A stretch of DNA of 64,000 bases from Bacteroidales bacterium (GTDB taxonomy: Bacteria > Bacteroidota > Bacteroidia > Bacteroidales > P3). The stretch is from assembly GCA_031553195.1 (NCBI GenBank), contig JAVBLV010000001.1, positions 58,138 through 122,137 of the forward strand. The letters run 5' to 3'. The notes below the pieces were generated by a model, which saw only the letters and a program-made list of their open reading frames with translations, did not search any database and had not been told where the DNA came from. This document shows, piece by piece, positions 22,549 to 35,650 of this stretch. The position numbers were made by a program, and so were the translations under genes. Numbering within the stretch: the stretch's first letter is position 1; each line of letters begins with the position of its first letter.

Positions 22549-23541
22549 TTACTTATAAAAGTTTTTCTCAAACGCAGAAAACTCCCCTTTCTTTAGGATA
22601 AGACGATTCCAAACGGCTGAGAGAAATCCGAAACCATAAGCCGTTAGTTGAATTAATGATGCAATAATAGATAGAAATCCAATTTTAAGGCTTTGATTTT
22701 TCAGGGTTGAATCTATTAAAATAAGAATACAATAAAATACGATTGGAAGCAAAGACCATCTACAAAAGATGAAGCCCAGTAATAAGAAAAAGACAAAAAT
22801 AGTGAATGCAGCCGGAAGCAGATGCACTATTTTTAACGATTCGGGATATTTCAAATACAAATTTATACGAGCAATTCCCGAATTATATACTTGTCTGAAA
22901 AACTTTTTCCAGTCAGTGCGTCTTTTATGATATACCCATGCCGTAGGGAAAAGCGATACCTTGTAACCTGCATTGTACAAACGAATACTGAAATCAATAT
23001 CTTCTCCAAACCTCATTTTAGAGAATCCTCCCAAAGCCTCGTACACGTTTTTCCTGATTCCCATATTAAAACTCCGGGGATAGAATTTATCTATTTTTTT
23101 CTTGCCCCCGCGTATGCCGCCGGTAGTAAAAAAAGAAGTCATGGAGTAGTTGATTGCCTTTTGAATATCGGTGAAATTATCCGCCGCTTTATCGGGGCCG
23201 CCAAAAGCATCTGCATTGGTTTTATCTAATTCGGAAATCACAGATTCCATATACTGAGGAGGAAGGATGCAATCCGAATCCAATACAATAATATATTCCC
23301 CCGCGCTTTTCGAAACGCCATAATTGCGCGCCTGTCCGGGGCCTCCGTTGGGAATAAAATAATAAGAAATGTTCAGCGTTTCTTTAAATTTTTCGATTAT
23401 CCATTCGCAGGGAACCTGAGACCCATCTTCTACAATAACAACCTCAAAATCTTTACTTCCCTGTTTAGTAAGACTATTTAATAACTCATCTACTTCATCC
23501 GGACGATTATAAACCGGAACAACAATTGAAAAATAAGGCAT
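22549..23541 (-). CDS. Family 2 glycosyltransferase with C-terminal TM helices
   Basis: 330 aa. SIVVPVYNR start, VLDSDC (DxD-like). Confidence 0.8.
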   Translation of the reverse strand: MPYFSIVVPVYNRPDEVDELLNSLTKQGSKDFEVVIVEDGSQVPCEWIIEKFKETLNISYYFIPNGGPGQARNYGVSKSAGEYIIVLDSDCILPPQYMESVISELDKTNADAFGGPDKAADNFTDIQKAINYSMTSFFTTGGIRGGKKKIDKFYPRSFNMGIRKNVYEALGGFSKMRFGEDIDFSIRLYNAGYKVSLFPTAWVYHKRRTDWKKFFRQVYNSGIARINLYLKYPESLKIVHLLPAAFTIFVFFLLLGFIFCRWSLLPIVFYCILILIDSTLKNQSLKIGFLSIIASLIQLTAYGFGFLSAVWNRLILKKGEFSAFEKNFYK

Positions 23542-23680
23542 TTCTTTTTCTTATTGGATAAGGATAATTTTCTGATCTGACATTTATAGAATGAACGGAT
23601 TTATTCACAAAAAATTAAAAATGAAGATATTATGGATTTTATGATTCCCAAAAGTAAGGTCTTATAGAAGCGTTTTTAAA

Positions 23681-24412
23681 TTATTTCTTCGTTTGACTTC
23701 CTTTAACCTCTTCGTACTCTTTATTTAAACCCTCTAAAATTTCTTTTGTCAAGTCCAGATTTTCGTCAATGTATAATACAGGACTTTCGATAAATGACTT
23801 TTTCAAAATAACTGTAAATTTACCGTTTTTCTCATTATAATTTTTGATGAAAGCATAAATGGCATTTACTAATTTTGTGTTTTCGGTTAGTTGTTTTTGT
23901 TGTATTTGCATCATCATCGATTCCTGCATTTTACCCAAATCTTGCTGGCGTTGCTTAAAAGATTCCTCTTTCTTTTTTTGTTCGGATAAAGTAAGCGAAG
24001 CCCCCGTCTTTAAATAGTTTTCATAATCGTTCTGAACCGAGCGGACTTGGGATTCAAAGTTTTTTTCAAGATTTGTTTTTAAAGCCTGTAATTCCTTTTC
24101 CAAGTCTTTTGCATATTGGTAATTAGCTATGAGAGTATCCGAATTAATATACGCAATAGTAATGGCTTCGTTTCCGGGAGTTGCCTTTGTTTGAACGGAT
24201 TGTTTGGTTATCGATTCTGTTTCTTTTGCTTTTTTATTATTTGTGAAAAATGATGCATATAGTATAGCTAAGCCTATTAAAAGAATCACATTGAGAATCA
24301 ATAAGCCTGTATAAATTGGATTCTTCGTTTTCTGACCGGGATTCGGATTCAAAGGATTATTATTATTTTCGAGGTTTGAATTTTCGACATTGTTTAAATT
24401 TTCTTCTGTCAT
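23681..24412 (-). CDS. Membrane-anchored OmpH-like coiled-coil protein
   Basis: 243 aa. N/P-rich N-terminus, one TM helix, then an OmpH-like segment (IAYINSDTLIANYQYAKDLEKEL). Occupies the position usually held by ftsZ. Confidence 0.5.
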   Translation of the reverse strand: MTEENLNNVENSNLENNNNPLNPNPGQKTKNPIYTGLLILNVILLIGLAILYASFFTNNKKAKETESITKQSVQTKATPGNEAITIAYINSDTLIANYQYAKDLEKELQALKTNLEKNFESQVRSVQNDYENYLKTGASLTLSEQKKKEESFKQRQQDLGKMQESMMMQIQQKQLTENTKLVNAIYAFIKNYNEKNGKFTVILKKSFIESPVLYIDENLDLTKEILEGLNKEYEEVKGSQTKK

Positions 24413-24487
24413 AGCTAATTATATTTTGTTTTATTTATTCCGGAATATTTGAAATTTTGCGTTCCATTTGGACTTGATAGTAGGATT

Positions 24488-25822
24488 CTACTTAATATCG
24501 TCGTTAAATAATTTTCCTATCCAATCCTGGAAAAAGCTATCGGTTTTAGAACCAAAAACTTTTTCTTTTTGTTTCTTTTGTTTAGTTGTTTCTTTCTTTG
24601 TTTCTACAGGATCTACTTGTGGAACTTGTTCTTCTTCCTCCAAAGGAATCTCCGTCTTTGAGTTTTTATTTTCAGATTCGCGGATTCCATGAATTACCAA
24701 TCCTATTCCTGTTGCATGCATCGGATGATTCAACTCGCTCGGAATTTCGCCTTCCAGATGTTCATTCGGAACGCCTATACGCGTGTCGATACCTGTTATA
24801 AATTCCGTCAATTGAACGGCATGTTTCAACATGGCTCCTCCGCCGGTGAGCACGATTCCTCCAATGAGTTTGCGCTCATATCCCGAAATTTTTATTTCAC
24901 GATATACTTGCTCCAAAATCATGTGCATACGCGCTTCGATAATACCGGCCAAAGTCTTCATCGATATCTCTCGCGGCGCTTTATTCCGTATTCCGGGAAT
25001 GGCTATCACATCATCTTCTTTATTAGCGCTGGCTAAACAAGACCCGAATTTTATTTTCAACGCTTCGGCCTGGTTTCGCATTATACAACAACCCTCCTTG
25101 ATATCGTCGGTAATTACATTCCCACCCATTGTGATAACAGCCGTATGCCGGATGATTCCTTCATGAAATATAGCAATGTCGGTAGTTCCGCCACCGATAT
25201 CAACAAGCGCTACGCCGGCGTCCTTGTCCCGGTTGTCTAAAACCGCTTCGGCAGAAGCAATAGGTTCCAAAACAAGCCCTTTTACCTCTAATCCGGCAGA
25301 TCTTACGCTTCGGCTGATATTCTTTATATTTGCCGCATGTCCTGTTATGATATGGAAATTACCTTCTAAACATGCGCCCGCTACTCCCACAGGCGTAGTG
25401 TTGATAATTTCTCCATCCACTATAAAGTCTTGAGGCAAAACATGTATAATCTCTTCTCCCGGCTGCAACATCAAACGGTATTGGTCTTCAATCAAACGAT
25501 TGACATCTGATTCGGTAATGATTTCATCTTTATGGTTTACCATAATATTACCCCGGTTCTGCATACTTTTAATATGTTGCCCCGCTATTCCCACATATAC
25601 TTCCCCAACTTCTACATTTGCCTGTAACGAAGCTTCCTGAACCGCTTTCTTTATAGACTGGGCAGTAAGTTCTATATTTACGACGACTCCTCTGTTTACG
25701 CCTACGGATTCGGTTTTCCCGCTTCCCAATATATTCACTCTTCCGTTCTCTGCCCTATGTCCGATGAAACAAGCTATTTTGGTAGTGCCAATATCCAACC
25801 CTACAATAATTTCATTATCCAT
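24488..25822 (-). CDS. ftsA: Cell division protein FtsA
   Basis: 444 aa. GLDIGTTKI and VDIGGGTTDIAIF actin-fold motifs. Basic linker and amphipathic C-terminal helix (FFQDWIGKLF). Confidence 0.9.
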   Translation of the reverse strand: MDNEIIVGLDIGTTKIACFIGHRAENGRVNILGSGKTESVGVNRGVVVNIELTAQSIKKAVQEASLQANVEVGEVYVGIAGQHIKSMQNRGNIMVNHKDEIITESDVNRLIEDQYRLMLQPGEEIIHVLPQDFIVDGEIINTTPVGVAGACLEGNFHIITGHAANIKNISRSVRSAGLEVKGLVLEPIASAEAVLDNRDKDAGVALVDIGGGTTDIAIFHEGIIRHTAVITMGGNVITDDIKEGCCIMRNQAEALKIKFGSCLASANKEDDVIAIPGIRNKAPREISMKTLAGIIEARMHMILEQVYREIKISGYERKLIGGIVLTGGGAMLKHAVQLTEFITGIDTRIGVPNEHLEGEIPSELNHPMHATGIGLVIHGIRESENKNSKTEIPLEEEEQVPQVDPVETKKETTKQKKQKEKVFGSKTDSFFQDWIGKLFNDDIK

Positions 25823-25832
25823 AGTCTTTCCA

Positions 25833-26627
25833 TTATTTTTTTGTACATACTACTTGATTCTTATATTTAAGATTGATGGCGCTGTATAAGCTCCATCCGA
25901 TATTAGAAAATCCTTGTTTATATAACGCCACAAGTTTTTCAAATTTTTCGTCGAGGTCGTTCACATCGCCCAAAAGAATGATATGATCTCCAACTTTAGG
26001 AACCAATTCAAATTCATCATTCTGATTTACGTATATTTGATCTATCTGAGCCTTTAACAACGGATCTTTATCAATGTATTTAGCTAAATCATATATTTTT
26101 ATTAGCTCCGATTTGTTCCATGTACTATCTCTTCTTAACAACTCGATAGAAATAGATTCCGATTGTCCTTTAGGAGCCATCTTAATATTCCCGCTCGCAA
26201 TAGTCACATGAGACGGATTAACTTTGCTAACAGGAAAAGAAATACCCATCTGGTCTATATAAAATTCTTTATTCGACAGGGTTTTTACTCTTACTATCGG
26301 TTTGCGTTGTTTCACCTTTATTCCTAAATAACCTTGAAGATTTATATAGGCATTAACGTCTTCTACAAACGGATTTTGTTTAAGCAGGGCTTCCAATTTC
26401 CGGATATTTACTTGGGCTATTTCCTTTCCTAGCAAGTTACCTTCGCCGGCAATTAAAATTTGGCCTAATTCCGATGAACTTATTAATGTATCTGCTCCCT
26501 GATAATTTATGGATATAGTTACTTCCCTGATTTGCGTCTTTTTATGAATTGCATTGGTAATAATAATGATAGCGACAACTATAATTATTATTCCTACTTT
26601 CCAGGTTATAGACCAAAACTTCTTCAT
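25833..26627 (-). CDS. ftsQ: Cell division protein FtsQ
   Basis: 264 aa. Single N-terminal TM helix, POTRA-like region. Sits 10 nt upstream of ftsA. Confidence 0.6.
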   Translation of the reverse strand: MKKFWSITWKVGIIIIVVAIIIITNAIHKKTQIREVTISINYQGADTLISSSELGQILIAGEGNLLGKEIAQVNIRKLEALLKQNPFVEDVNAYINLQGYLGIKVKQRKPIVRVKTLSNKEFYIDQMGISFPVSKVNPSHVTIASGNIKMAPKGQSESISIELLRRDSTWNKSELIKIYDLAKYIDKDPLLKAQIDQIYVNQNDEFELVPKVGDHIILLGDVNDLDEKFEKLVALYKQGFSNIGWSLYSAINLKYKNQVVCTKK

Positions 26628-26743
26628 CCGAATTCCTTTAAATTCTTTTATTTAAATAGTAAATAATGATTTCAAGAACAGATAATTTCAACATCGCTTT
26701 CGAACAAAAAAAACCATAAGATAAATAATAAGTTCATTTATGA

Positions 26744-26903
26744 GTAATCGTTTAAATTTTTATGGAAAAGATTTTGAGGAATAAAAACGGCTATTTTGCA
26801 GACGGGATTTTTCAAGAATAGTAGCGCTATTTGGTAAAAATTCCGGCAAAAAAGAGCGTTTTTAGATTCAAAATGCTTCATAGAAAAATTTTTAAACGGT
26901 TAC
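26744..26903 (-). repeat. Copy 2 of the palindromic intergenic repeat (opposite orientation to copy 1)
   Basis: GTAATCGTTTAAATTTT ... GGGATTTTTCAAGAATAGTAGCGCTATTTGG ... AAAATTTTTAAACGGTTAC. TGA lies on both flanks. Confidence 0.85.
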
Positions 26904-27312
26904 TGAGTATCTAAAACTTCATCTAAACAACTTTAACAATCAAAATACGCTTATCTTCAATACGTTATTCAATCAGACGATATATCAAATTGTTTCTTGT
27001 CATTTGTAATCATTCTGTAATGAACTTTACTATGAAATTTGTTCAGGAATCATTATATATGACAAAGTTACGGTTAAAACAAGTATTTTACAAGCAATGA
27101 ACAAATTTCGTTTAATTTCTTTTCAAAATCCGAGAAATAAAAATAACTACTTGACAATATTCCGTGAAGAATAATATTTTCAAATCCAGATAATTTAAAG
27201 TAAATTACAAATTGCAATGCAAATTTACAACCTTTTCAGCAGAGAAATGAAAATGGCAAAAAAAGATAATGAAAAAAATCCGGTTCATGCAGTATAAAGA
27301 CGGATTGTAAAT

Positions 27313-27354
27313 AAAAAAGGTTATTGAAACTAAACTAGCTCAATAACCTTTTTG
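27313..27354 (-). terminator. Terminator after the Y-rich-protein / barrel gene pair (structure is bidirectional)
   Basis: Stem AAGGTTATTGA / TCAATAACCTT flanked by A-runs and T-runs, ~45 nt after the stop of the 494-aa gene. Confidence 0.6.
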
Positions 27355-27395
27355 TTTTTGAATAAGTCTTTGCAGAGATGGCTTATACCAATCAA

Positions 27396-28880
27396 TTAGA
27401 ACCTAAAACCAAATGTTGTAATAATTAAATTTTCGCTTTTATTGACCTTTACAGGTTCTATCTGATAATAAGGATCGTACATGTAATAATTTACTTTTTG
27501 CAAAGTATGAGCATAGGCCAAATCAATATACCAAAATCTGGATTTATAGCCAAGTCCTGCAGAGAAAGCATTCTTATTTCCTGCATTAGTCCCTGATTTC
27601 GCATAGGTTGTATTCTGATAAGGACTTCCAAATAAAGCATAACCTGCGCGAAATACTGCTTTTTTATAATTTAAAGATCCCCCGGCTCTAAATACATGAC
27701 CGGATTTGTACACATTTTCTATTATATCATTAACCGTGTTTTCCCATCTGTTATCATCTAACTGATAAGTCATGAAGGAATAATTGGTATATTCATAATC
27801 AACGCCTATAGAACCGGCTAAGGTAGAATTTTGATCGCCAAACGTTGCGCCGACGCTTCCCAATACTTTAAAGGGAGTTATCAAATAATATTCCGAAACT
27901 ACAACAGGAGAATAAGCGTCTATCCCTTCATAATAATCGGCTAAAGAAGAACTGTACGAATCATCATACATCGAATAAAAAGTAGGGGTATGGAAAGCCG
28001 CTCCAATACGCAACCACTCCGTCGGACGTAAAATGGCTCCGATTTTTAAATTAACCCCCCAACCTTTGGTATACAAATCCTCAAAATAGTCGAAACTAGG
28101 ATTCCCGTCGGACAAATACTCAGAATATACGGAATGTCTTTCATAAGAAAGATAGGGAATTCCCAATGTTGCGCCCAAGTATAAAAAATCGTTATAATTT
28201 CCGCTGATGGATAGCGCAAATTCATCAATTCCTCCTTTTTCAGAGAAATCTTGACTTTGCTCGCTAGGCCCTTGGGCTCTAGAAAAATAACGTTTTCCTC
28301 CCGTGCCGGGGAGCGTATCCATAAGATACGTATAAAATGCAAGTCCCGCCGTAAAAGGATCTAAATTCGAAGGCGTTAGACCATTTGAGTTATAAACCCA
28401 TTCATCGGTAATAGAGTAATCGGGGTTACGTCCGTAAATACTTGTCGCATTATTAAATGCGGCTAAACGGTTATAGCTAAATCCTACTTGAAATGCTTTC
28501 CAATCATTATTTGCTTTGGTAGGAACAGCTAACAGAAGACCCACGGGCGCCCAATAAAAACTAGACCTGAAATCACTGGCTTTTGATCCGAAATAATCAG
28601 AGGAGGAATAGCCTATATGAAGCGAGGGCGAGATAAGAAATTCAGACCGGTAAAAAAGGCCCAAGCCTGCGGGATTATAGCTTGAGGCCGTTAAATCGCC
28701 GCCAAGCGCGCCGATAGCGCCTGCTCTTCCTACATAAGAAGCCGTTCCGAAGAGGCCATATTGACTACTACGCAATGCATCTTCTTCAGTTTGAGATTTT
28801 ACTTGCCCAATACTTAGACAAAGAAATGTAATGATGAAAAATCTTTTCATACAAATTGCCGATTTTAACTTTAAATACAT
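27396..28880 (-). CDS. FadL/PorV-like outer-membrane beta-barrel protein. The start is probably the Met at ~28850.
   Basis: 494 aa. Signal peptide MKRFFIITFLCLSIGQVKSQ. N-terminal GRAGAIGALGGDLTASSYNPAGLG motif as in FadL/PorV-type barrels. C-terminal ..TTFGFRF. Confidence 0.6.
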   Translation of the reverse strand: MYLKLKSAICMKRFFIITFLCLSIGQVKSQTEEDALRSSQYGLFGTASYVGRAGAIGALGGDLTASSYNPAGLGLFYRSEFLISPSLHIGYSSSDYFGSKASDFRSSFYWAPVGLLLAVPTKANNDWKAFQVGFSYNRLAAFNNATSIYGRNPDYSITDEWVYNSNGLTPSNLDPFTAGLAFYTYLMDTLPGTGGKRYFSRAQGPSEQSQDFSEKGGIDEFALSISGNYNDFLYLGATLGIPYLSYERHSVYSEYLSDGNPSFDYFEDLYTKGWGVNLKIGAILRPTEWLRIGAAFHTPTFYSMYDDSYSSSLADYYEGIDAYSPVVVSEYYLITPFKVLGSVGATFGDQNSTLAGSIGVDYEYTNYSFMTYQLDDNRWENTVNDIIENVYKSGHVFRAGGSLNYKKAVFRAGYALFGSPYQNTTYAKSGTNAGNKNAFSAGLGYKSRFWYIDLAYAHTLQKVNYYMYDPYYQIEPVKVNKSENLIITTFGFRF

Positions 28881-28892
28881 AAATCATCTAAA

Positions 28893-30425
28893 CTATCGTC
28901 TTCCTCCGGAACTTCTACCTCCTCCGCTACTGCTTCCTCCGGAAGAACTGCCTCCTCTTGGAGCGCTGCTGGGAGTGGCCGGCGAAGGCGACCGGGAAGG
29001 AGAAACAGATGGCGTACTACTAGGCGCAGATGTTCTTGTCGGGGTATTATACCGGGGATTGTTATTTTCCGTCTGGCGATTGTTATCCGAGCGGGATGGC
29101 GTATTTGTTGCCGGCGAAGTATATCTGTTTTGCTCTCTACTTGGCGTCGAATAGCTTCCCCTCTCCCTATTCATACTCGAACCCGAAGAATTGGTTGTAG
29201 GAATTGTTGTCCGTTCAGTTGCACGGGTTTGTTCCGAAGCAGGTTTTCTATATACTTCGCGAGAAGAAGAGGGTGAGGGAGTATTATTATAAGTTCTATC
29301 GCCTGCGCCTCTGTCTCTGTTCATTGTCGCCGCATTAGGATTTATATCTACCCCGCCCCTCCGTTGAAACGAAGGGCTATTAGAAGCCGGTTTATCATAA
29401 GTTCTTCCATTATTTACAGCTTCATTTCTGATTTGATTTGTATTTCTGTCGATCGAATTTGAATTGGCCGCTCTATTATAATCATTTCTCCCTGTAGGAG
29501 TCGTGACTCTCGAGTTATTCGTATTGCCGGCTCTCGCTTCATAACGCTCGCCGAAAGTCCTGCTATCCCTTGTAAGCGAGGAGGAAGCGTTTCTCGATGA
29601 AGGCGATCTCATGTATTCATTCGACCTGGTCGCATTGGAAGCCATACTGCTTCTAGCTCCTAAATTTCCGCCAGAACGAGATTCCGTTGCCGCGCCTCTG
29701 CTTCCGGCCGTCCGGGAACCATAGTAAACAGGTCTTCCATAATAGCAGGAATTCCAGTCATAGCTGTTATAGTAGCAGTTGGCGGCATAATAACCATTCC
29801 AATATCCATAGTTATATCCTGCCCAATAGGCTCCTCCCCCATACCACGGATAACCATAATATCCCCAACCCCAGCCCCAACCGGCATAATAGTAAGGGGA
29901 ATAATAATACCATGAGGGATACCACCAACTATAACCCAAATATATGCTTACGCCCCAATAATTAGGGTCGTAGGTATACCAATATGCATTGGTATAATAA
30001 TCATTATAATAACTCCATCCGCAGTTAGTACCGTAAAATCGTTTCAAACGCGCGGCATAAGCATAGTCATAATAATCATCTTCGCTATAATTTGTATAGC
30101 TGCCATAATAATTATTTGTGACATAGGTATTTCCGTCATCGTCGGTTCGGAGGCTGGATTTCGCCGCCCCATCAGGTTCCGAACGTTCAATCGTTTCCCT
30201 GCTCTCGGTAGATTGTAGGTGGACGGAACTATCTACATATCTCTTGGGTTCTTGATAAGAAGATTTCTTCTCTTTCGAGGGAGAATAAAGCACGTCGTCA
30301 TAATTTTCTCGTTGAGCAAATAGGAATATGCTGTTTATCAACAAAAAACAAACCATTAGCAGAGACCTGTAGTATGCGTGTTTTAAGTTTAAAGTTTTCA
30401 TATAACCTCCTACGTTTCTATTCAT
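28893..30425 (-). CDS. Secreted low-complexity protein: signal peptide, Tyr/Trp/Gly/Asn-rich block, then long Ser/Arg/Asn/Thr/Pro-rich tail ending in GGSSSGGSSSGGGRSSGGRR
   Basis: 510-aa ORF. Hydrophobic signal LLMVCFLLINSIFLFAQ. Residues ~104-237 contain about 43 Tyr and 13 Trp by my hand count (for example GWGWGWGYYGYPWYGGGAYWAGYNYGYW). No family I can name with confidence. It resembles YXWGXW-type repeats. Confidence 0.6.
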   Translation of the reverse strand: MNRNVGGYMKTLNLKHAYYRSLLMVCFLLINSIFLFAQRENYDDVLYSPSKEKKSSYQEPKRYVDSSVHLQSTESRETIERSEPDGAAKSSLRTDDDGNTYVTNNYYGSYTNYSEDDYYDYAYAARLKRFYGTNCGWSYYNDYYTNAYWYTYDPNYWGVSIYLGYSWWYPSWYYYSPYYYAGWGWGWGYYGYPWYGGGAYWAGYNYGYWNGYYAANCYYNSYDWNSCYYGRPVYYGSRTAGSRGAATESRSGGNLGARSSMASNATRSNEYMRSPSSRNASSSLTRDSRTFGERYEARAGNTNNSRVTTPTGRNDYNRAANSNSIDRNTNQIRNEAVNNGRTYDKPASNSPSFQRRGGVDINPNAATMNRDRGAGDRTYNNTPSPSSSREVYRKPASEQTRATERTTIPTTNSSGSSMNRERGSYSTPSREQNRYTSPATNTPSRSDNNRQTENNNPRYNTPTRTSAPSSTPSVSPSRSPSPATPSSAPRGGSSSGGSSSGGGRSSGGRR

Positions 30426-30432
30426 TATTTCG

Positions 30433-30440
30433 TACCTTTG
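30433..30440 (+). promoter_or_regulatory. -7 box TACCTTTG for proS
   Basis: Matches TAnnTTTG, 56 nt before the ATG at 30496. Confidence 0.45.
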
Positions 30441-30458
30441 CAGTACATTTAGTTAGTG

Positions 30459-30466
30459 CAAATATA
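30459..30466 (-). promoter_or_regulatory. -7 box TATATTTG (plus-strand CAAATATA) for the Y-rich protein operon
   Basis: Matches TAnnTTTG on the minus strand, 34 nt upstream of the start at 30425. Confidence 0.4.
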
Positions 30467-30495
30467 CACTTTATCAAAAATAGATAACGTACATA

Positions 30496-31971
30496 ATGGC
30501 AAAAAATTTTGTAACACGATCTGAAAATTATTCAGAATGGTATAACGAGCTTGTAATAAAAGCTGATTTGGCTGAAAATTCGGCAGTTAGAGGTTGTATG
30601 GTCATTAAGCCCTATGGATATGCAATATGGGAAAAGATGCAACAAACTTTAGACAAAATGTTTAAAGATACGGGGCATGTGAACGCTTATTTCCCATTAT
30701 TTATTCCCAAATCATTTTTTGAAAAAGAAGCTGAACATGTGGAAGGTTTTGCCAAAGAATGCGCAGTGGTAACCCATTCTCGTTTGCGGGCAAAACAAGG
30801 TATGCAAACCTTGGAAGTGGATCCCGATTCGAAACTGGAAGAAGAATTAATTGTAAGGCCTACTTCCGAAACTATCATTTGGGATACTTATAAAAAATGG
30901 ATTCAATCTTATCGGGATTTGCCTATTTTGTGTAATCAATGGGCGAACGTAGTTCGTTGGGAAATGAGAACCCGCATGTTTCTGCGGACGGCTGAATTTC
31001 TTTGGCAAGAGGGTCATACAGCGCATGCCACAGAAGAAGAAGCTGTAGAGGAAGCGCGTAAAATGCTTGAAGTATATGCTACTTTTGCAGAAAAATGGTT
31101 AGCGATTCCGGTATTGAAAGGAAGGAAATCTGCCCAAGAACGTTTTGCAGGCGCGTTGGAGACTTTTTGCATCGAGGCTATGATGCAAGATGGAAAAGCG
31201 TTGCAGGCAGGCACCTCTCATTTTTTAGGGCAAAATTTTGCTAAAGCTTTTGACGTTAAATTTTTGAATAAGGAAAATAAATTGGAATATGTTTGGGCTA
31301 CGTCATGGGGCGTTTCTACCCGTTTGATGGGCGCCTTAATTATGACGCATTCGGATGATAACGGGTTGGTATTGCCTCCAAAATTAGCGCCTATTCAAGT
31401 GGTTATTATTCCTATCTATAAAAATGAAGAACAACTGGCGCAAATTTCGGAAAAAGTTTCGGAATGGAAAAAATCATTAGAGGATAAGGGAATTAGCGTA
31501 AAATATGACGACAGGGAATCTCATAAACCCGGATGGAAATTCAACGAATATGAATTCAAAGGGGTTCCTGTTCGAATTGCAATAGGCCCCCGCGATCTTG
31601 AGGAGGGAACCGTTGAGGTAAGCCGTCGCGACACGCTGGAAAAAGAAATTTTCCAACAAATCGACTTAGCTTCGAAAATTGAACACCTGTTAGAGAATAT
31701 TCAACAAAATTTATATCAGAAAGCCTTAACCCTACGGGAAGAAAAGACTTATAAGGCTGATACATGGGAAGAGTTTAAAGATATAATAGAGAATAAACAA
31801 GGTTTTGCGTTAGCACATTGGGATGGTACCAGCGAAACCGAACAAAAGATCAAGGAAGAAACCAAGGCCACTATACGTGTAATTACTTTTGACGGCGTAG
31901 AGGAAAGCGGAACTTGCATATATTCCGGAAGGCCCTCTGGCAGACGGGTAGTTTTTGCAAAAGCTTATTAA
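30496..31971 (+). CDS. proS: Proline--tRNA ligase (archaeal/eukaryote-like type)
   Basis: 491 aa. N-terminus [23 protein letters not shown], plus class II motifs ([13 protein letters not shown]). Confidence 0.9.
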
Positions 31972-32129: not shown

Positions 32130-33219
32130 ATGATCCCCAGCGAAATAATGAAAGACCTCGAAAAAAGGGTCGAGGACTTGAGGAGGTTCCTTTGACATTG
32201 ATGAAAAAATCAAACAAATAAAGGAAGAAGAAAAACAAACCCAGGAAGCGGATTTTTGGGAAGATCCTAAAGCAGCTAAGCTGTTGTTGTTGAAAATAAA
32301 AGAAAAAAAGATTTGGACAGACGCTTTTGCAGAAGTGCGCGAAAGTTTGGAAGACAGTAAAGTATTATACGAGTTTTTCGAACAAGGGGAAGCCGCCGAA
32401 GAAGAACTAAACAAACAATTGCAAGTTTCTTTGAACCTATTGGAAGCATTGGAATTTAAAAATATGCTTGGCAATGAAGAAGATCGTTTAGGCGCAATCA
32501 TTACAATTAACTCCGGAGCAGGAGGAACCGAAAGTCAGGATTGGGCGGAAATGTTGATGCGAATGTATATTCGCTGGGCGGAAAGAAACAAGTTCAAAAT
32601 AACCGAATTAGATATGCATGAGGGCGATTCGGCAGGAATCAAATCTGTTACTTTGGAAATAGACGGAGAATTTGCTTACGGATATTTAAAAGGGGAAAAT
32701 GGCGTGCATAGGTTGGTGCGGCTTTCGCCTTTCGATGCAGCCAATAAACGTCATACTTCTTTCGCTTCGGTATATGCATATCCGATTATTGATGAAAACA
32801 TAGAAATTGAGTTAAATCCGGCCGATATTACCTGGGATACGTTTCGTTCCGGCGGTCCCGGCGGACAAAACGTAAATAAAGTTGAAACGGCAGTTCGCTT
32901 AAAACATGAACCCAGCGGAATCATTATCGAATGTCAACAAACCCGTTCCCAATTACAAAACAGAGAAAAAGCTCTACAAATGTTGAAATCTCAATTATAT
33001 GAGATCGAACTTCGTAAAAAGAGGGAAAAAATTGCCGAAATAGAAGGAAGCAAAAAGAAAATTGAGTGGGGTTCGCAAATTCGTAACTACGTCATGCATC
33101 CTTATAAAATGGTAAAAGATTTACGCACAGGCGTTGAAACATCTAATGTTCAAGCGGTAATGGATGGAGATCTGGAGGCTTTTATAAAGGCTTATTTGAT
33201 GGAGTTTGCAAACGAGTAA
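32130..33219 (+). CDS. prfB: Peptide chain release factor 2, made by a programmed +1 frameshift: join(32130..32192, 32194..33219)
   Basis: Frame 0 reads [21 protein letters not shown] then TGA. The +1 frame continues [29 protein letters not shown] into the 311-aa ORF, which carries SPF and GGQ motifs ([24 protein letters not shown]). Confidence 0.9.
32181..32196 (+). promoter_or_regulatory. prfB +1 frameshift signal AGGAGG-TTC-CTT-TGA-C
   Basis: An SD-like AGGAGG lies 3 nt before the CTT TGA C slippery/stop context, the same architecture as in E. coli prfB. Confidence 0.85.
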
Positions 33220-35158: not shown

Positions 35159-35650
35159 ATGAAGAAACTACGTATTTCTATTATGCTTTTCATTATTTTA
35201 TTGATGGGAGCTTGCAGTTCAAAAACAGTTTTTGACGAACGTTTTCAGTTCACGGATTATAAATGGAATCATTTTAAACCAATTGTTTTTACGGTAAACA
35301 TAACGGATATAAACATCTGTTATGATTTATTATTAACCCTACGTTATATTCCTCAGATACCTTACGAAAAATTTCCTGTATTAATTCAAATTAAAGACCC
35401 GTCGGGAGGAGAACGCACTTTTACGCATACTTTTAAAATTAAAGACCCTGATGGAAATTTAATAGGGGAAGGATTGGGCGATTTGTGGGATTTGGAAGAT
35501 AAAGCTAAGGAGTATTTCTTTTTTAACGAAACAGGGAAATATGAATTTAAAATTAGCCAGTACACGCAATATTATGATGCCGTGTGTATAATGGATCTGG
35601 GTTTGAAGATTAACAAATCGAAGATCGATTATAACATTGAAAGCGAATAA
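35159..35650 (+). CDS. gldH: Gliding-motility/T9SS-associated lipoprotein GldH
   Basis: 163 aa. Lipobox LMGAC. VFDERFQF..W, LR..P..PY and DPDGNLIGEGLGD align by eye with remembered GldH features. Confidence 0.5.
   Translation: MKKLRISIMLFIILLMGACSSKTVFDERFQFTDYKWNHFKPIVFTVNITDINICYDLLLTLRYIPQIPYEKFPVLIQIKDPSGGERTFTHTFKIKDPDGNLIGEGLGDLWDLEDKAKEYFFFNETGKYEFKISQYTQYYDAVCIMDLGLKINKSKIDYNIESE

What the first reader, a model, noticed from the sequence alone, without database searches (positions are those of the whole stretch)
27396..30425. Secreted aromatic-rich, intrinsically disordered protein paired with its own FadL/PorV-like barrel
Seen in the sequence:
- The 510-aa ORF at 28893..30425 has a signal peptide.
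- A ~134-residue block (nt ~29715..30116) contains about 43 Tyr and 13 Trp by my hand count, roughly 40% aromatic, interspersed with Gly/Asn (GWGWGWGYYGYPWYGGGAYWAGYNYGYWNGYY).
- It continues with a ~270-residue Ser/Arg/Asn/Thr/Pro-rich, basic, apparently disordered tail ending in GGSSSGGSSSGGGRSSGGRR.
- 12-42 nt downstream on the same strand is a 494-aa outer-membrane barrel with a FadL/PorV-type N-terminal motif (GDLTASSYNPAGLG).
- A single terminator hairpin follows the pair.

Inference: this layout, one secreted low-complexity substrate-like protein plus one dedicated barrel, echoes functional-amyloid and fibre export modules (curli CsgA/CsgG, Fap FapC/FapF) and the PorV cargo shuttle. Neither protein matches a characterised family that I can name. 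It could be a cell-surface matrix, adhesive or phase-separating coat system.
Basis: partly seen in the sequence, partly recalled or inferred. Interest (0 to 1): 0.7.

Follow-up and report, generated by a model that had tools for sequence, protein, structure and literature searches.

The report
Conserved barrel and tyrosine-rich lipoprotein pair
Two neighbouring genes that sit beside the prolyl-tRNA synthetase gene in hundreds of Bacteroidota species encode a FadL-type outer-membrane barrel and an unannotated protein with a tyrosine/tryptophan-packed core and a long, positively charged floppy tail; I found no description of the pair, so it is a candidate new component of the Bacteroidota cell envelope.

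Summary
On the minus strand, a 510-aa ORF (28893-30425) has exactly 43 Tyr and 13 Trp in 134 residues, then a 273-aa basic polar tail ending GGRR. A 484/494-aa barrel follows 42/12 nt later, then a terminator hairpin.

The pairing is not chance. In 71 of 72 species loci with enough upstream sequence, the barrel homologue is preceded by a Tyr/Trp-rich ORF, and in 67 by a divergent proS. Searching from the partner side finds the same layout.

The barrel has a FadL fold: the AF2 model has pLDDT 88, the top Foldseek hits are BamG, FadL and TodX, and the NPA hatch motif is invariant. It falls far below the curated PorV, PorQ and BamG cut-offs.

The partner family has 724 clusters and no Pfam or NCBIfam model. 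It is not only low complexity. It has a conserved N-proximal DD[VI]YY motif, a 60-residue core more conserved than the barrel, and a basic C-terminus. About 80-90% of members carry a lipobox with no surface-export signal; the window copy does not.

Best reading: a stable outer-membrane barrel-lipoprotein complex docked in the BamG/BamH manner, with a polycationic tail as a binding brush. The curli/Fap-type export idea is not supported. The mechanism is inferred, not shown.

The parts
28893..30425 (-). Partner gene: a 510-aa secreted protein, rich in Tyr/Trp with a basic tail. The likely start is M9 at 30401, giving 502 aa, identical to public protein P0212.
   Evidence: ORF. Composition. 724 homologous clusters. 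100% match to P0212.
30315..30401 (-). Predicted signal peptide, residues 9-37, with cleavage LFA|Q. In this copy the Cys lies inside the hydrophobic core, so the protein is probably not lipidated. Most homologues do have a lipobox.
   Evidence: Read from the sequence. AF2 gives a confident N-terminal helix. Lipobox survey.
30282..30302 (-). N-proximal conserved motif YDDVLYS, the family's DD[VI]YY motif. D43 is invariant; D44 and Y46 are nearly invariant.
29904..30083 (-). Conserved core, residues 115-174: EDDYYDYAYAARLKRF...YYNDYYTNAYWYTYDPNYWGVSIYLGYSWWYPSWYY.
   Evidence: Invariant columns. Mean pairwise identity is 61% over the first 62 residues.
29715..30116 (-). Whole aromatic block, residues 104-237: 43 Y and 13 W. 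It includes the variable Y/G/W linker and the second conserved motif YYNSYDxNS (Y218, N220 and D223 invariant).
   Evidence: The summed Wimley-White interfacial energy is -43.9 kcal/mol; the lowest value in any other ORF window is -30.1.
28896..29714 (-). Basic polar tail predicted to be disordered, residues 238-510, net charge +22. It ends GGRR.
   Evidence: tails are net positive in every homologue; the last residue is R or K in 146/199.
27396..28880 (-). Barrel gene: a FadL-superfamily outer-membrane beta-barrel. It is 494 aa from the first ATG, and 484 aa from the ATG at 28850 used by the public call.
   Evidence: AF2 pLDDT 88.3. Foldseek. Family profile against TbuX.
28647..28793 (-). Mature N-terminus and hatch of the barrel: Q20-TEEDALRSSQ...GDLTASSYNPAGLG. 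The invariant NPA is at 28668..28676.
   Evidence: It runs about 7-8 residues longer than the aligned TbuX N-terminus.
27981..28016 (-). The most conserved barrel segment, WLRIGAAFHTPT (residues 279-290).
27314..27353 (-). Intrinsic-terminator-like hairpin that closes the two-gene unit.
30426..30495 (.). 70-nt divergent intergenic region shared with proS. It holds three TAnnTTTG motifs: + strand at 30433, - strand at 30466 and 30482.
   Evidence: 3 found against 0.16 expected per 100 nt. That TAnnTTTG is the Bacteroides -7 promoter element is from my own knowledge.
30496..31971 (+). proS (prolyl-tRNA synthetase), the conserved divergent neighbour.
   Evidence: Pfam. Synteny in 67/72 loci.

Best explanation
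**What it is (well supported).** This is a two-gene outer-membrane module conserved across the phylum Bacteroidota and almost always divergent from proS.
- Gene 2 encodes a FadL-fold barrel. FadL barrels have 14 strands; the strand count was not read from this model. It has a conserved N-terminal hatch with a Gln mature N-terminus, QxExDALRxSQ, then the NPA motif.
- Gene 1 encodes a new protein family built in a fixed order: signal peptide, usually with a lipobox Cys; a DD[VI]YY motif; a spacer; a highly conserved Tyr-rich core; a variable Tyr/Gly/Trp or His-run linker; a YYNSYDxNS motif; a 150-370-residue polycationic polar tail; and a C-terminal basic dipeptide.

**How it most likely works (inferred).** The barrel is not a fatty-acid channel. 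It is the membrane-embedded docking partner of gene 1's product, in the way BamG holds the conserved lipidated N-terminus of BamH.
- The N-proximal DD[VI]YY segment and the interface-seeking aromatic core bind the barrel and the membrane interface.
- The polycationic tail projects into the aqueous compartment as a flexible brush or tether for an anionic envelope polymer.
- By default that compartment is the periplasm, because the lipoprotein export signal is absent. Peptidoglycan or anionic lipid head-groups are then the likely ligands. LPS or capsule would be the ligands if the protein turns out to be surface exposed.

The window's own copy has lost the lipobox, so it would depend entirely on the barrel for membrane attachment.
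For: **Pairing**
- 71/72 species loci have a Y/W-rich ORF directly upstream of the barrel, with a median gap of 69 nt. 67/72 also have a divergent proS.
- Partner-first searches land in the same proS/partner/barrel layout.
- Variant loci L013, L072 and L084 keep an aromatic-block protein next to the barrel although proS is absent and the N-terminal domain differs. So the barrel-aromatic-block link does not depend on proS.
- There is weak extra co-evolution. The partial correlation of barrel and core distances, controlling for ProRS, is 0.31 with permutation p = 0.004 over 25 species.

**Barrel**
- AF2 pLDDT is 88.
- Foldseek hits BtBamG, EcFadL, PaFadL, FjBamG, PgBamG and TodX at E 1e-16 to 1e-11.
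- The family profile hits TbuX at 2.4e-7.
- NPA is invariant.
- The L013 orthologue passes the Pfam Toluene_X threshold.

**Partner**
- 724 clusters share a uniform architecture.
- The core is more conserved than the barrel: 61% against 39% identity.
- Roughly 62-64 of 68 usable neighbour sequences have a lipobox, and 164/199 cluster representatives do. They carry 0-1 acidic residues in the six residues after the Cys. The export-signal rule is quoted from PMC12578637.
- In non-lipidated variants the DD[VI]YY motif moves to within 0-5 residues of the mature N-terminus.
- The aromatic block has the most favourable membrane-interface energy of any ORF window here, whereas the tail strongly prefers water.
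- AF2 cannot fold the partner alone (pLDDT 50), which fits a protein that is ordered only in complex.

**Precedent**
- BamG2 and BamH2 are in a putative operon (PMC12578637 and PMC12611786).
Against: - No interaction was computed or measured.
- The barrel scores far below the BamG cut-off (best homologue 48.7 bits against 250; the window protein scores nothing). The analogy is therefore structural, not membership.
- BamH-type partners carry the surface-export signal; these partners do not.
- The side of the membrane is unresolved.
- The hatch with NPA is retained, as in true FadL transporters, so a transport role is not excluded.
- The ligand of the tail is pure inference from charge.
- Neither transcription nor translation is shown. 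Only sequence conservation argues for expression.
Confidence: 0.42

Rival explanations
1. Dedicated export module. The barrel is a secretion pore for the unfolded Tyr/Arg-rich protein, as with CsgG for curli or FapF for Fap. The protein then forms an extracellular adhesive, amyloid or condensate coat.
For: - The arrangement is one substrate-like gene plus one barrel.
- The partner is not foldable alone.
- Its Tyr/Trp/Gly/Asn plus Arg composition resembles mussel adhesive proteins and FUS-type phase-separating domains (from memory).
- Bacteroidota BamA has an extracellular Tyr/Gly/Asn-rich loop.
- About 15% of members, including the window copy, are not lipidated.
Against: - About 80-90% of members are lipoproteins with no export signal.
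- There are no amyloid-type imperfect repeats.
- FadL-fold barrels are plugged by their hatch, and the hatch is the best-conserved part here.
- There is no similarity to CsgG or FapF.
- The sharply conserved 60-residue core argues for a specific bound structure rather than a bulk material.
Confidence: 0.15
2. A genuine FadL-type uptake channel for a hydrophobic compound. The partner is an accessory periplasmic or membrane-interface protein, for example an aromatic 'greasy' acceptor, or is functionally unrelated.
For: - The FadL fold and invariant NPA hatch motif are retained.
- Homologues are annotated OmpP1/FadL transporter.
- The L013 orthologue passes the Toluene_X threshold.
Against: - Identity to every characterised FadL, TodX or TbuX is 11-14%.
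- No degradative or lipid-metabolism genes are conserved nearby; the context beyond proS varies.
- Single-copy, phylum-wide conservation with one specific partner is unlike substrate-specific uptake genes.
- In Bacteroidota, the FadL-fold proteins that have been characterised (PorV, PorP/SprF, BamG) bind proteins.
Confidence: 0.15
3. A non-canonical type IX secretion shuttle pair. The barrel acts like PorV or SprF and carries the partner as cargo, using its conserved basic C-terminus as the signal.
For: - The nearest curated sequence models are PorV/PorQ-family (17 of 27 homologues, sub-threshold).
- Cargo genes next to their cognate PorP/SprF shuttles are a known Bacteroidota layout (PMC12618676).
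- The window encodes gldH.
- The C-terminal basic dipeptide is conserved.
Against: - No type A or type B C-terminal domain was detected in the window partner or in 63 homologues.
- Scores are 22-39 bits against cut-offs of 90-325.
- A four-residue basic end is nothing like the known folded T9SS signal domain (about 80 aa, from memory).
Confidence: 0.08
4. Conserved gene order without functional coupling: two unrelated envelope genes that simply stayed next to proS.
For: All three genes, including housekeeping proS, remain adjacent. So ancestral order alone can preserve adjacency.
Against: - The layout is same-strand and tightly spaced, with a terminator after the pair in the window copy.
- The barrel keeps an aromatic-block partner in loci that lost proS.
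- The flanks on the far side of the barrel differ between loci.
Confidence: 0.08

Closest known systems
BamG-BamH (and the BamG2-BamH2 operon) of the Bacteroidota BAM complex (PMC12578637, PMC12611786)
   Same: - A FadL-fold barrel with a conserved, extended N-terminus is paired with a lipoprotein whose conserved N-terminal segment docks on the barrel.
- The paralogous pair BamG2/BamH2 is in a putative operon.
- It is specific to Bacteroidota and the FCB superphylum.
- BtBamG is the top Foldseek hit.
   Different: - The window barrel gives no BamG model hit. The best homologue scores 48.7 bits against a cut-off of 250, with 11-13% identity to BamG structures.
- The barrel is about 80 residues longer.
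- The partner is unrelated to BamH: it has no export signal and no folded domain, and it carries a Tyr/Trp core plus a polycationic tail.
- There is no evidence of association with BamA.
PorV / PorQ / PorP-SprF shuttle barrels of the type IX secretion system
   Same: - These are FadL-like Bacteroidota barrels that bind proteins rather than lipids.
- SprF-like genes sit next to the genes of their cargo (PMC12618676).
- Weak PorV/PorQ-family hits appear in 17/27 homologues.
   Different: - All scores are far below the cut-offs, and the window protein hits none.
- There is no PF11751 match.
- The partner lacks any T9SS C-terminal domain.
FadL / TodX / TbuX hydrophobic-compound channels (PF03349)
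   Same: - Fold, N-terminal hatch and NPA motif match.
- The family profile hits TbuX at E = 2.4e-7.
   Different: - Identity is 12-14%.
- The N-terminus is extended by about 7-8 residues.
- There is an obligate neighbouring partner gene.
- There is no catabolic gene context.
Curli (CsgA/CsgG) and Fap (FapC/FapF) functional-amyloid export
   Same: One secreted, non-globular protein plus one outer-membrane protein in one transcription unit.
   Different: - The barrel family is different.
- The partner is mostly lipidated.
- There are no imperfect amyloid repeats.
- No accessory genes (nucleator, chaperone) are conserved.
Lipoprotein-in/at-barrel complexes such as LptD-LptE and RcsF-OmpA/C/F, and the Lpp tether (from my own knowledge)
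   Same: - A lipoprotein is held by or threaded through a barrel.
- RcsF uses a basic disordered linker.
- Lpp has an N-terminal lipid anchor and a basic C-terminus (…YRK) that contacts peptidoglycan.
   Different: - There is no sequence relationship.
- The C-terminal residue here is mostly Arg, which could not be cross-linked as the Lys of Lpp is.
- The genes of those systems are not adjacent.
Tyr/Gly/Asn-rich extracellular loop 3 of Bacteroidota BamA (PMC12578637)
   Same: Same unusual composition, disordered in cryo-EM, function unknown, specific to Bacteroidota.
   Different: It is a 38-residue loop within BamA, not a separate protein. No sequence homology was tested.

Membership tests
FadL/Toluene_X superfamily (barrel) | Sequence match to PF03349 or to solved family members | tested here: met
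   The window protein alone gives no Pfam hit at E <= 1. The 27-sequence family profile hits TbuX (3bry) at E = 2.4e-7. Many homologues carry precomputed PF03349. The L013 orthologue scores 43.8 bits against the 29.7 cut-off.
FadL/Toluene_X superfamily (barrel) | FadL-type barrel fold with an N-terminal hatch | tested here: met
   AF2 model pLDDT 88.3, pTM 0.84. The 27 best Foldseek PDB hits are all FadL-family chains, with probability 1.0 and TM 0.58-0.68 normalised by target. The strand count was not checked on coordinates.
FadL/Toluene_X superfamily (barrel) | NPA motif in the hatch | tested here: met
   N59, P60 and A61 are invariant in 27 homologues. The PDB entries for FadL N33A, P34A and delta-NPA mutants show this is the family motif.
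FadL/Toluene_X superfamily (barrel) | Transport of a hydrophobic substrate through the lateral opening | not testable with these tools
   Needs transport assays or a structure.
BamG (NF053685) | Score above the curated cut-off (250 bits) | tested here: not met
   The window barrel has no hit. The best homologue, P0091, scores 48.7 bits. The family profile does not retrieve the BamG chains in the PDB.
BamG (NF053685) | Conserved N-terminal extension beyond the FadL N-terminus | tested here: inconclusive
   The mature N-terminus QxExDALRxSQ is conserved. It is about 7-8 residues longer than aligned TbuX. Where it lies in the model could not be inspected.
BamG (NF053685) | Partner is a surface lipoprotein with at least 2 acidic residues within 6 residues of the Cys | tested here: not met
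   There are 0-1 acidic residues in all 62 lipidated neighbours. The rule is taken from PMC12578637.
BamG (NF053685) | Physical association with BamA | not testable with these tools
   Needs a pull-down or cryo-EM.
PorV / PorQ (NF033709, NF033710, NF033711, NF052325) | Score above the curated cut-offs (90-325 bits) | tested here: not met
   The window barrel has no hit. Homologues score 15-39 bits, as partial matches to the hatch or to the last strands.
PorP/SprF shuttle + type B cargo | PF11751 in the barrel; type B C-terminal domain (CHU_C / TIGR04131) in the neighbour | tested here: not met
   Neither is detected.
Curli / Fap amyloid systems | CsgG- or FapF-type outer-membrane component; imperfect repeat units in the subunit | tested here: not met
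   No such Pfam or structural hits. Only a (GGSSSG)x2 and a (GW)x3 repeat are found.
YXWGXW repeat (PF12779) | Pfam match in the aromatic block | tested here: not met
   No hit at E <= 1 in the window partner and none at E <= 0.01 in 63 homologues.

The most novel reading that the evidence does not exclude
The pair is an unrecognised housekeeping envelope system of Bacteroidota. In this reading, a FadL-fold barrel holds, or threads through its lateral opening, a lipid-anchored protein built from Tyr/Trp 'stickers' and an Arg-rich tail. That protein would form either a polycationic tether between the outer membrane and peptidoglycan (a functional stand-in for Lpp, which to my knowledge this phylum lacks), or a mussel-glue-like, condensate-forming surface coat.
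Probability: 0.2. Interest if true: 0.85.

Novelty: new variant of a known kind. Interest (0 to 1): 0.62.

Why it matters
The Bacteroidota outer membrane differs from the E. coli textbook model. In 2025 its BAM complex was shown to contain a FadL-fold barrel (BamG) that grips a lipoprotein. How lipoprotein-barrel complexes are built, and how the envelope layers are held together in this phylum, remain open questions.

This pair adds a second barrel-plus-lipoprotein module, equally widespread. Its lipoprotein has an extreme and strongly conserved chemistry: about 40% Tyr/Trp followed by a polycationic tail. Neither gene has a family model or a name.

If the complex is real, it offers:
- a new envelope component to test in cultured carriers such as Chitinophaga alhagiae;
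- a natural case of a conserved aromatic/arginine 'sticker' protein working at a bacterial membrane;
- two new protein families to curate.

Tried and rejected
- **Family scans.** Pfam and NCBIfam scans of both window proteins found nothing. phmmer of the barrel against PDB sequences found nothing. The partner-core profile against the PDB found nothing.
- **Partner structure.** AF2 of the partner (residues 9-260, 32-sequence alignment) gave pLDDT 50 and no usable fold. No structure search was run on it.
- **Specific families.** PorV, PorQ, BamG, PorP/SprF, T9SS C-terminal domains, YXWGXW, CsgG and FapF were all rejected as memberships.
- **DNA repeats.** Repeat expansion as the origin of the low-complexity tail was rejected.
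- **RNA families.** Rfam over the whole window found nothing.
- **Literature.** Six searches found no description of this pair: FadL with Bacteroidota and disordered lipoprotein; tyrosine-rich; proS neighbourhood; DUF3300; arginine-rich periplasmic lipoprotein; PorV2. They did supply the BamG/BamH and SprF precedents.
- **Model organisms.** A third homology search, seeded from a Flavobacteriales-labelled MAG barrel, returned only uncultured genomes. Whether B. thetaiotaomicron, P. gingivalis or F. johnsoniae carry the pair is therefore unknown. Cluster look-up did find cultured Chitinophaga carriers.
- **Mirror-tree analysis.** It gave only weak support (partial r = 0.31, 25 species) and is confounded by shared phylogeny.
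- **O-glycosylation motif count.** Uninformative: 0 sites, with roughly 0.6 expected by my rough estimate.
- **Horizontal transfer.** I considered it as an explanation for the higher GC at 28-30 kb and rejected it. The excess most likely reflects the Ser/Arg/Gly/Pro codons of the tail.

Full report

Yes. Both ORFs lie on the minus strand: the partner at 28893..30425 (510 aa) and the barrel at 27396..28880 (494 aa). The public call for an identical protein starts the barrel at the second ATG, 28850, giving 484 aa.

- Residues 104-237 of the partner (nt 29715..30116) contain exactly 43 Tyr and 13 Trp, plus 18 Gly and 12 Asn. That is 41.8% Tyr+Trp.
- The other long ORFs of the window average 5.7%, and their richest 134-residue stretch reaches 14.9%.
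- The following 273 residues are 75% S/T/N/P/G/R/Q/K and 6% hydrophobic, with net charge +22, ending ...GGGRSSGGRR.
- This composition is not produced by tandem DNA repeats.
- An A-tract/hairpin/U-tract follows the barrel at about 27353..27314. It folds at -21 kcal/mol, z = -3.1 against shuffles.
- The 70-nt gap to the divergent proS holds three TAnnTTTG motifs, one facing proS and two facing the partner, where 0.16 are expected. That this motif is the Bacteroides -7 promoter element is my own knowledge.

**2. Is the pairing more than chance?**

A profile of 27 barrel homologues was scanned over one genome per GTDB species.

- Of the 72 loci with at least 1.5 kb upstream, 71 have a Tyr/Trp-rich ORF directly upstream on the same strand, with a median gap of 69 nt. 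67 also have proS divergently upstream.
- The labels cover Bacteroidales, Lentimicrobiaceae, Chitinophagales, Saprospiraceae, Flavobacteriales and Weeksellaceae, plus one bin labelled Chlorobiota.
- Starting from partner homologues instead gives the same proS/partner/barrel layout. The downstream proteins are 31-35% identical to the window barrel.
- Genes beyond the barrel differ from locus to locus.
- Three loci (L013, L072, L084) lack proS, and their upstream protein has a different N-terminal domain (sub-threshold DUF3300, E = 1e-4). That protein still carries an aromatic block with the YWAGY-type motif and a basic ...YRGRRK end. The link between barrel and aromatic block therefore does not depend on proS.
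- Distance matrices for 25 species give a partial correlation of 0.31 between barrel and partner core after controlling for ProRS (permutation p = 0.004). I treat this as weak support only.

**3. The barrel**

- The window protein alone hits nothing in Pfam, NCBIfam or PDB sequences.
- The family profile hits the toluene channel TbuX at E = 2.4e-7.
- Many homologues carry weak PF03349, and one orthologue passes its threshold at 43.8 against 29.7 bits.
- The AF2 model is confident: pLDDT 88.3, pTM 0.84.
- Its 27 best PDB matches are all FadL-fold chains. They are led by B. thetaiotaomicron BamG, E. coli and P. aeruginosa FadL, F. johnsoniae and P. gingivalis BamG, and TodX/CymD/TbuX, at 11-14% identity.
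- The best-conserved parts are the mature N-terminus and hatch, and WLRIGAAFHTPT. The hatch reads Q20-x-E-x-DALRxSQ...GGAxGALGGD...S-x-NPAGLG, with N-P-A invariant.
- The segment before the aligned hatch is about 7-8 residues longer than in TbuX.
- Against curated models the family is an outlier. PorV/PorQ-family hits reach 22-39 bits against a cut-off of 90. PorV, PorQ and PorV2 reach 15-29 bits against 220-325. BamG reaches at most 48.7 against 250. The window protein has none of these hits.
- It is therefore a distinct subfamily of the FadL/PorV/BamG superfamily. It is not a PorV, a PorQ, a BamG or an orthologue of a characterised FadL.

**4. The partner**

A profile of the aromatic core was searched against 1.84 billion representative proteins. 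It found 724 clusters at E <= 1e-3 and 474 at E <= 1e-10. Among the 150 listed, all are 198-661 aa, and in nearly all the core starts around residue 70-170. None of 63 diverse members has any Pfam domain. The core profile matches no solved structure.

The family is much more than low complexity. Its parts, in order, are:

- **Signal peptide.** Roughly 62-64 of 68 usable neighbour sequences, and 164 of 199 cluster representatives, have a lipobox Cys.
- **DD[VI]YY motif.** It lies 9-13 residues after that Cys. In the non-lipidated minority it lies 0-5 residues after the predicted A|Q cleavage.
- **Variable spacer.**
- **Core.** DDYYDYAYSARLRRF-x(8-10)-YYDDYYTNxYWYTYDPxxWGTSIYLGYSWWYPSYY, with 16-18 invariant positions. 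Its first 62 residues average 61% pairwise identity. In the same species the barrel averages 39% and ProRS 72%.
- **Variable Tyr/Gly/Trp linker.** One clade replaces it with 8-12 consecutive His.
- **YYNSYDxNSxYYGPR motif.**
- **Net-positive polar tail** of 118-376 residues in canonical members. The three variant loci have only 16 residues here.
- **Basic C-terminus.** The last residue is R or K in 146/199, and RR in 86/199.

Further properties:

- The lipidated members have 0-1 acidic residues in the six positions after the Cys. They therefore lack the Bacteroidota lipoprotein export signal as defined in PMC12578637.
- The window copy is one of the exceptions. Its Cys lies inside the hydrophobic core, and cleavage is predicted at LFA|Q.
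- AF2 does not fold residues 9-260 (pLDDT 50).
- On the Wimley-White interfacial scale the aromatic block sums to -43.9 kcal/mol. That is lower than any other 134-residue stretch encoded in the window (minimum -30.1, mean +23). The tail sums to +92.8.
- The protein thus combines a segment that seeks the membrane interface with a highly soluble polycation.

**5. How it most likely works**

*Shown:* two co-conserved, co-oriented, tightly spaced genes; a FadL-fold barrel with a conserved N-terminus; and a mostly lipidated partner with a conserved N-proximal motif and core.

*Inferred:* the two proteins form a stable outer-membrane complex.

The closest worked example is BamG/BamH. BamG is a FadL-family barrel whose extended, conserved N-terminus passes through the lateral opening. 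The conserved N-terminus of the lipoprotein BamH is wedged between BamG strands and contacts that N-terminus. The paralogous pair BamG2/BamH2 is in a putative operon (PMC12578637 and PMC12611786). Other Bacteroidota FadL-fold barrels (PorV, SprF/PorP) are likewise protein-binding shuttles, often encoded beside their cargo (PMC12618676).

I therefore propose the following:
- The barrel is the docking partner for the DD[VI]YY segment and the aromatic core.
- The polycationic tail extends as a brush or tether towards an anionic polymer.
- Because the export signal is missing, the default location is the periplasmic face. Peptidoglycan or anionic head-groups would then be the ligands.
- Surface exposure is not excluded. 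The barrel might mediate it, and Bacteroidota BamA carries a Tyr/Gly/Asn-rich extracellular loop of unknown function.

Confidence in the identity of the module is high. Confidence in this mechanism is about 0.4.

**6. Rivals**

- **Curli/Fap-like export pore.** The layout and composition fit. Lipidation, the conserved hatch, the lack of repeats and the unrelated barrel type argue against it.
- **True hydrophobic-substrate channel.** The fold and NPA motif fit. There is no conserved catabolic context, and the partner is obligatory.
- **Non-canonical T9SS shuttle.** Weak PorV-family similarity and the gldH gene in the window fit. No C-terminal secretion domain is present.
- **Adjacency without function.** The proS-less variant loci and the operon-like spacing argue against it.

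**7. Known or new?**

- I found no family model, no name beyond 'hypothetical protein' or 'OmpP1/FadL family transporter', and no paper describing the pair.
- The kind of system, a FadL-fold barrel plus a cognate neighbouring (lipo)protein, is known in this phylum. I therefore rate it a new variant of a known kind, with an unprecedented partner family.
- Cultured carriers exist: Chitinophaga alhagiae and Chitinophaga sp. SYP-B3965. The hypothesis is therefore testable.
- Whether the main model organisms carry the pair was not determined.

**8. Verdict**

The amyloid/export analogy is not supported. Interest is 0.62.

Noticed in passing
window 32131-32290 (+), frameshift site about 32172-32196: The release factor 2 gene (prfB) shows the classical programmed +1 frameshift site, GAGGAGG-TTC-CTT-TGA-C. 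A short ORF starts at ATG 32131. The PCRF and RF-1 domains are in the next frame, 32284..33219.
   Followed up: partly
window 26628-27395: A 770-nt AT-rich stretch lies between the pair's terminator and the ftsQ-like ORF. It has only ORFs under 50 aa and no Rfam match. This is unusually long for a genome this compact.
   Followed up: partly
window 22549-26627 (-): ftsA (24488..25822) is followed by an OmpH/Skp-like gene and a GT2 glycosyltransferase, not by ftsZ. I call the 264-aa ORF upstream of ftsA 'ftsQ-like' from its position only; it has no Pfam hit.
   Followed up: partly
window 35159-35650 (+): A GldH lipoprotein gene is present. To my knowledge this marks lineages that have gliding-motility / type IX secretion genes.
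   Followed up: no
partner homologues P0128, P0131, P0136, P0138, P0141, P0146, P0147, P0159-P0162 (alignment A2): One clade replaces the Tyr/Gly/Trp linker between the two conserved motifs with 8-12 consecutive histidines. This suggests the linker needs planar or pi-rich (or metal-binding) side chains rather than a particular sequence.
   Followed up: no
L013 3812-6452; also L072 and L084: In these variant modules the barrel follows a protein with a sub-threshold DUF3300 N-terminal domain, an aromatic block and a ...YRGRRK end. There is no long tail and no proS. In L013 the neighbours are BON-domain, DegP-like and PBP-like genes. The L013 barrel passes the Pfam Toluene_X threshold.
   Followed up: partly
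literature, PMC12578637: Bacteroidota BamA has a 38-39-residue extracellular loop 3 with 12-13 tyrosines, also enriched in Gly and Asn. It is invisible in cryo-EM and has no known function. Its composition echoes the partner's aromatic block.
   Followed up: no
window 28001-30000: GC content rises to 44.7% against about 36% for the window. I attribute this to the Ser/Arg/Gly/Pro-rich tail of the partner, not to foreign DNA; the attribution is inferred from composition and was not computed.
   Followed up: partly
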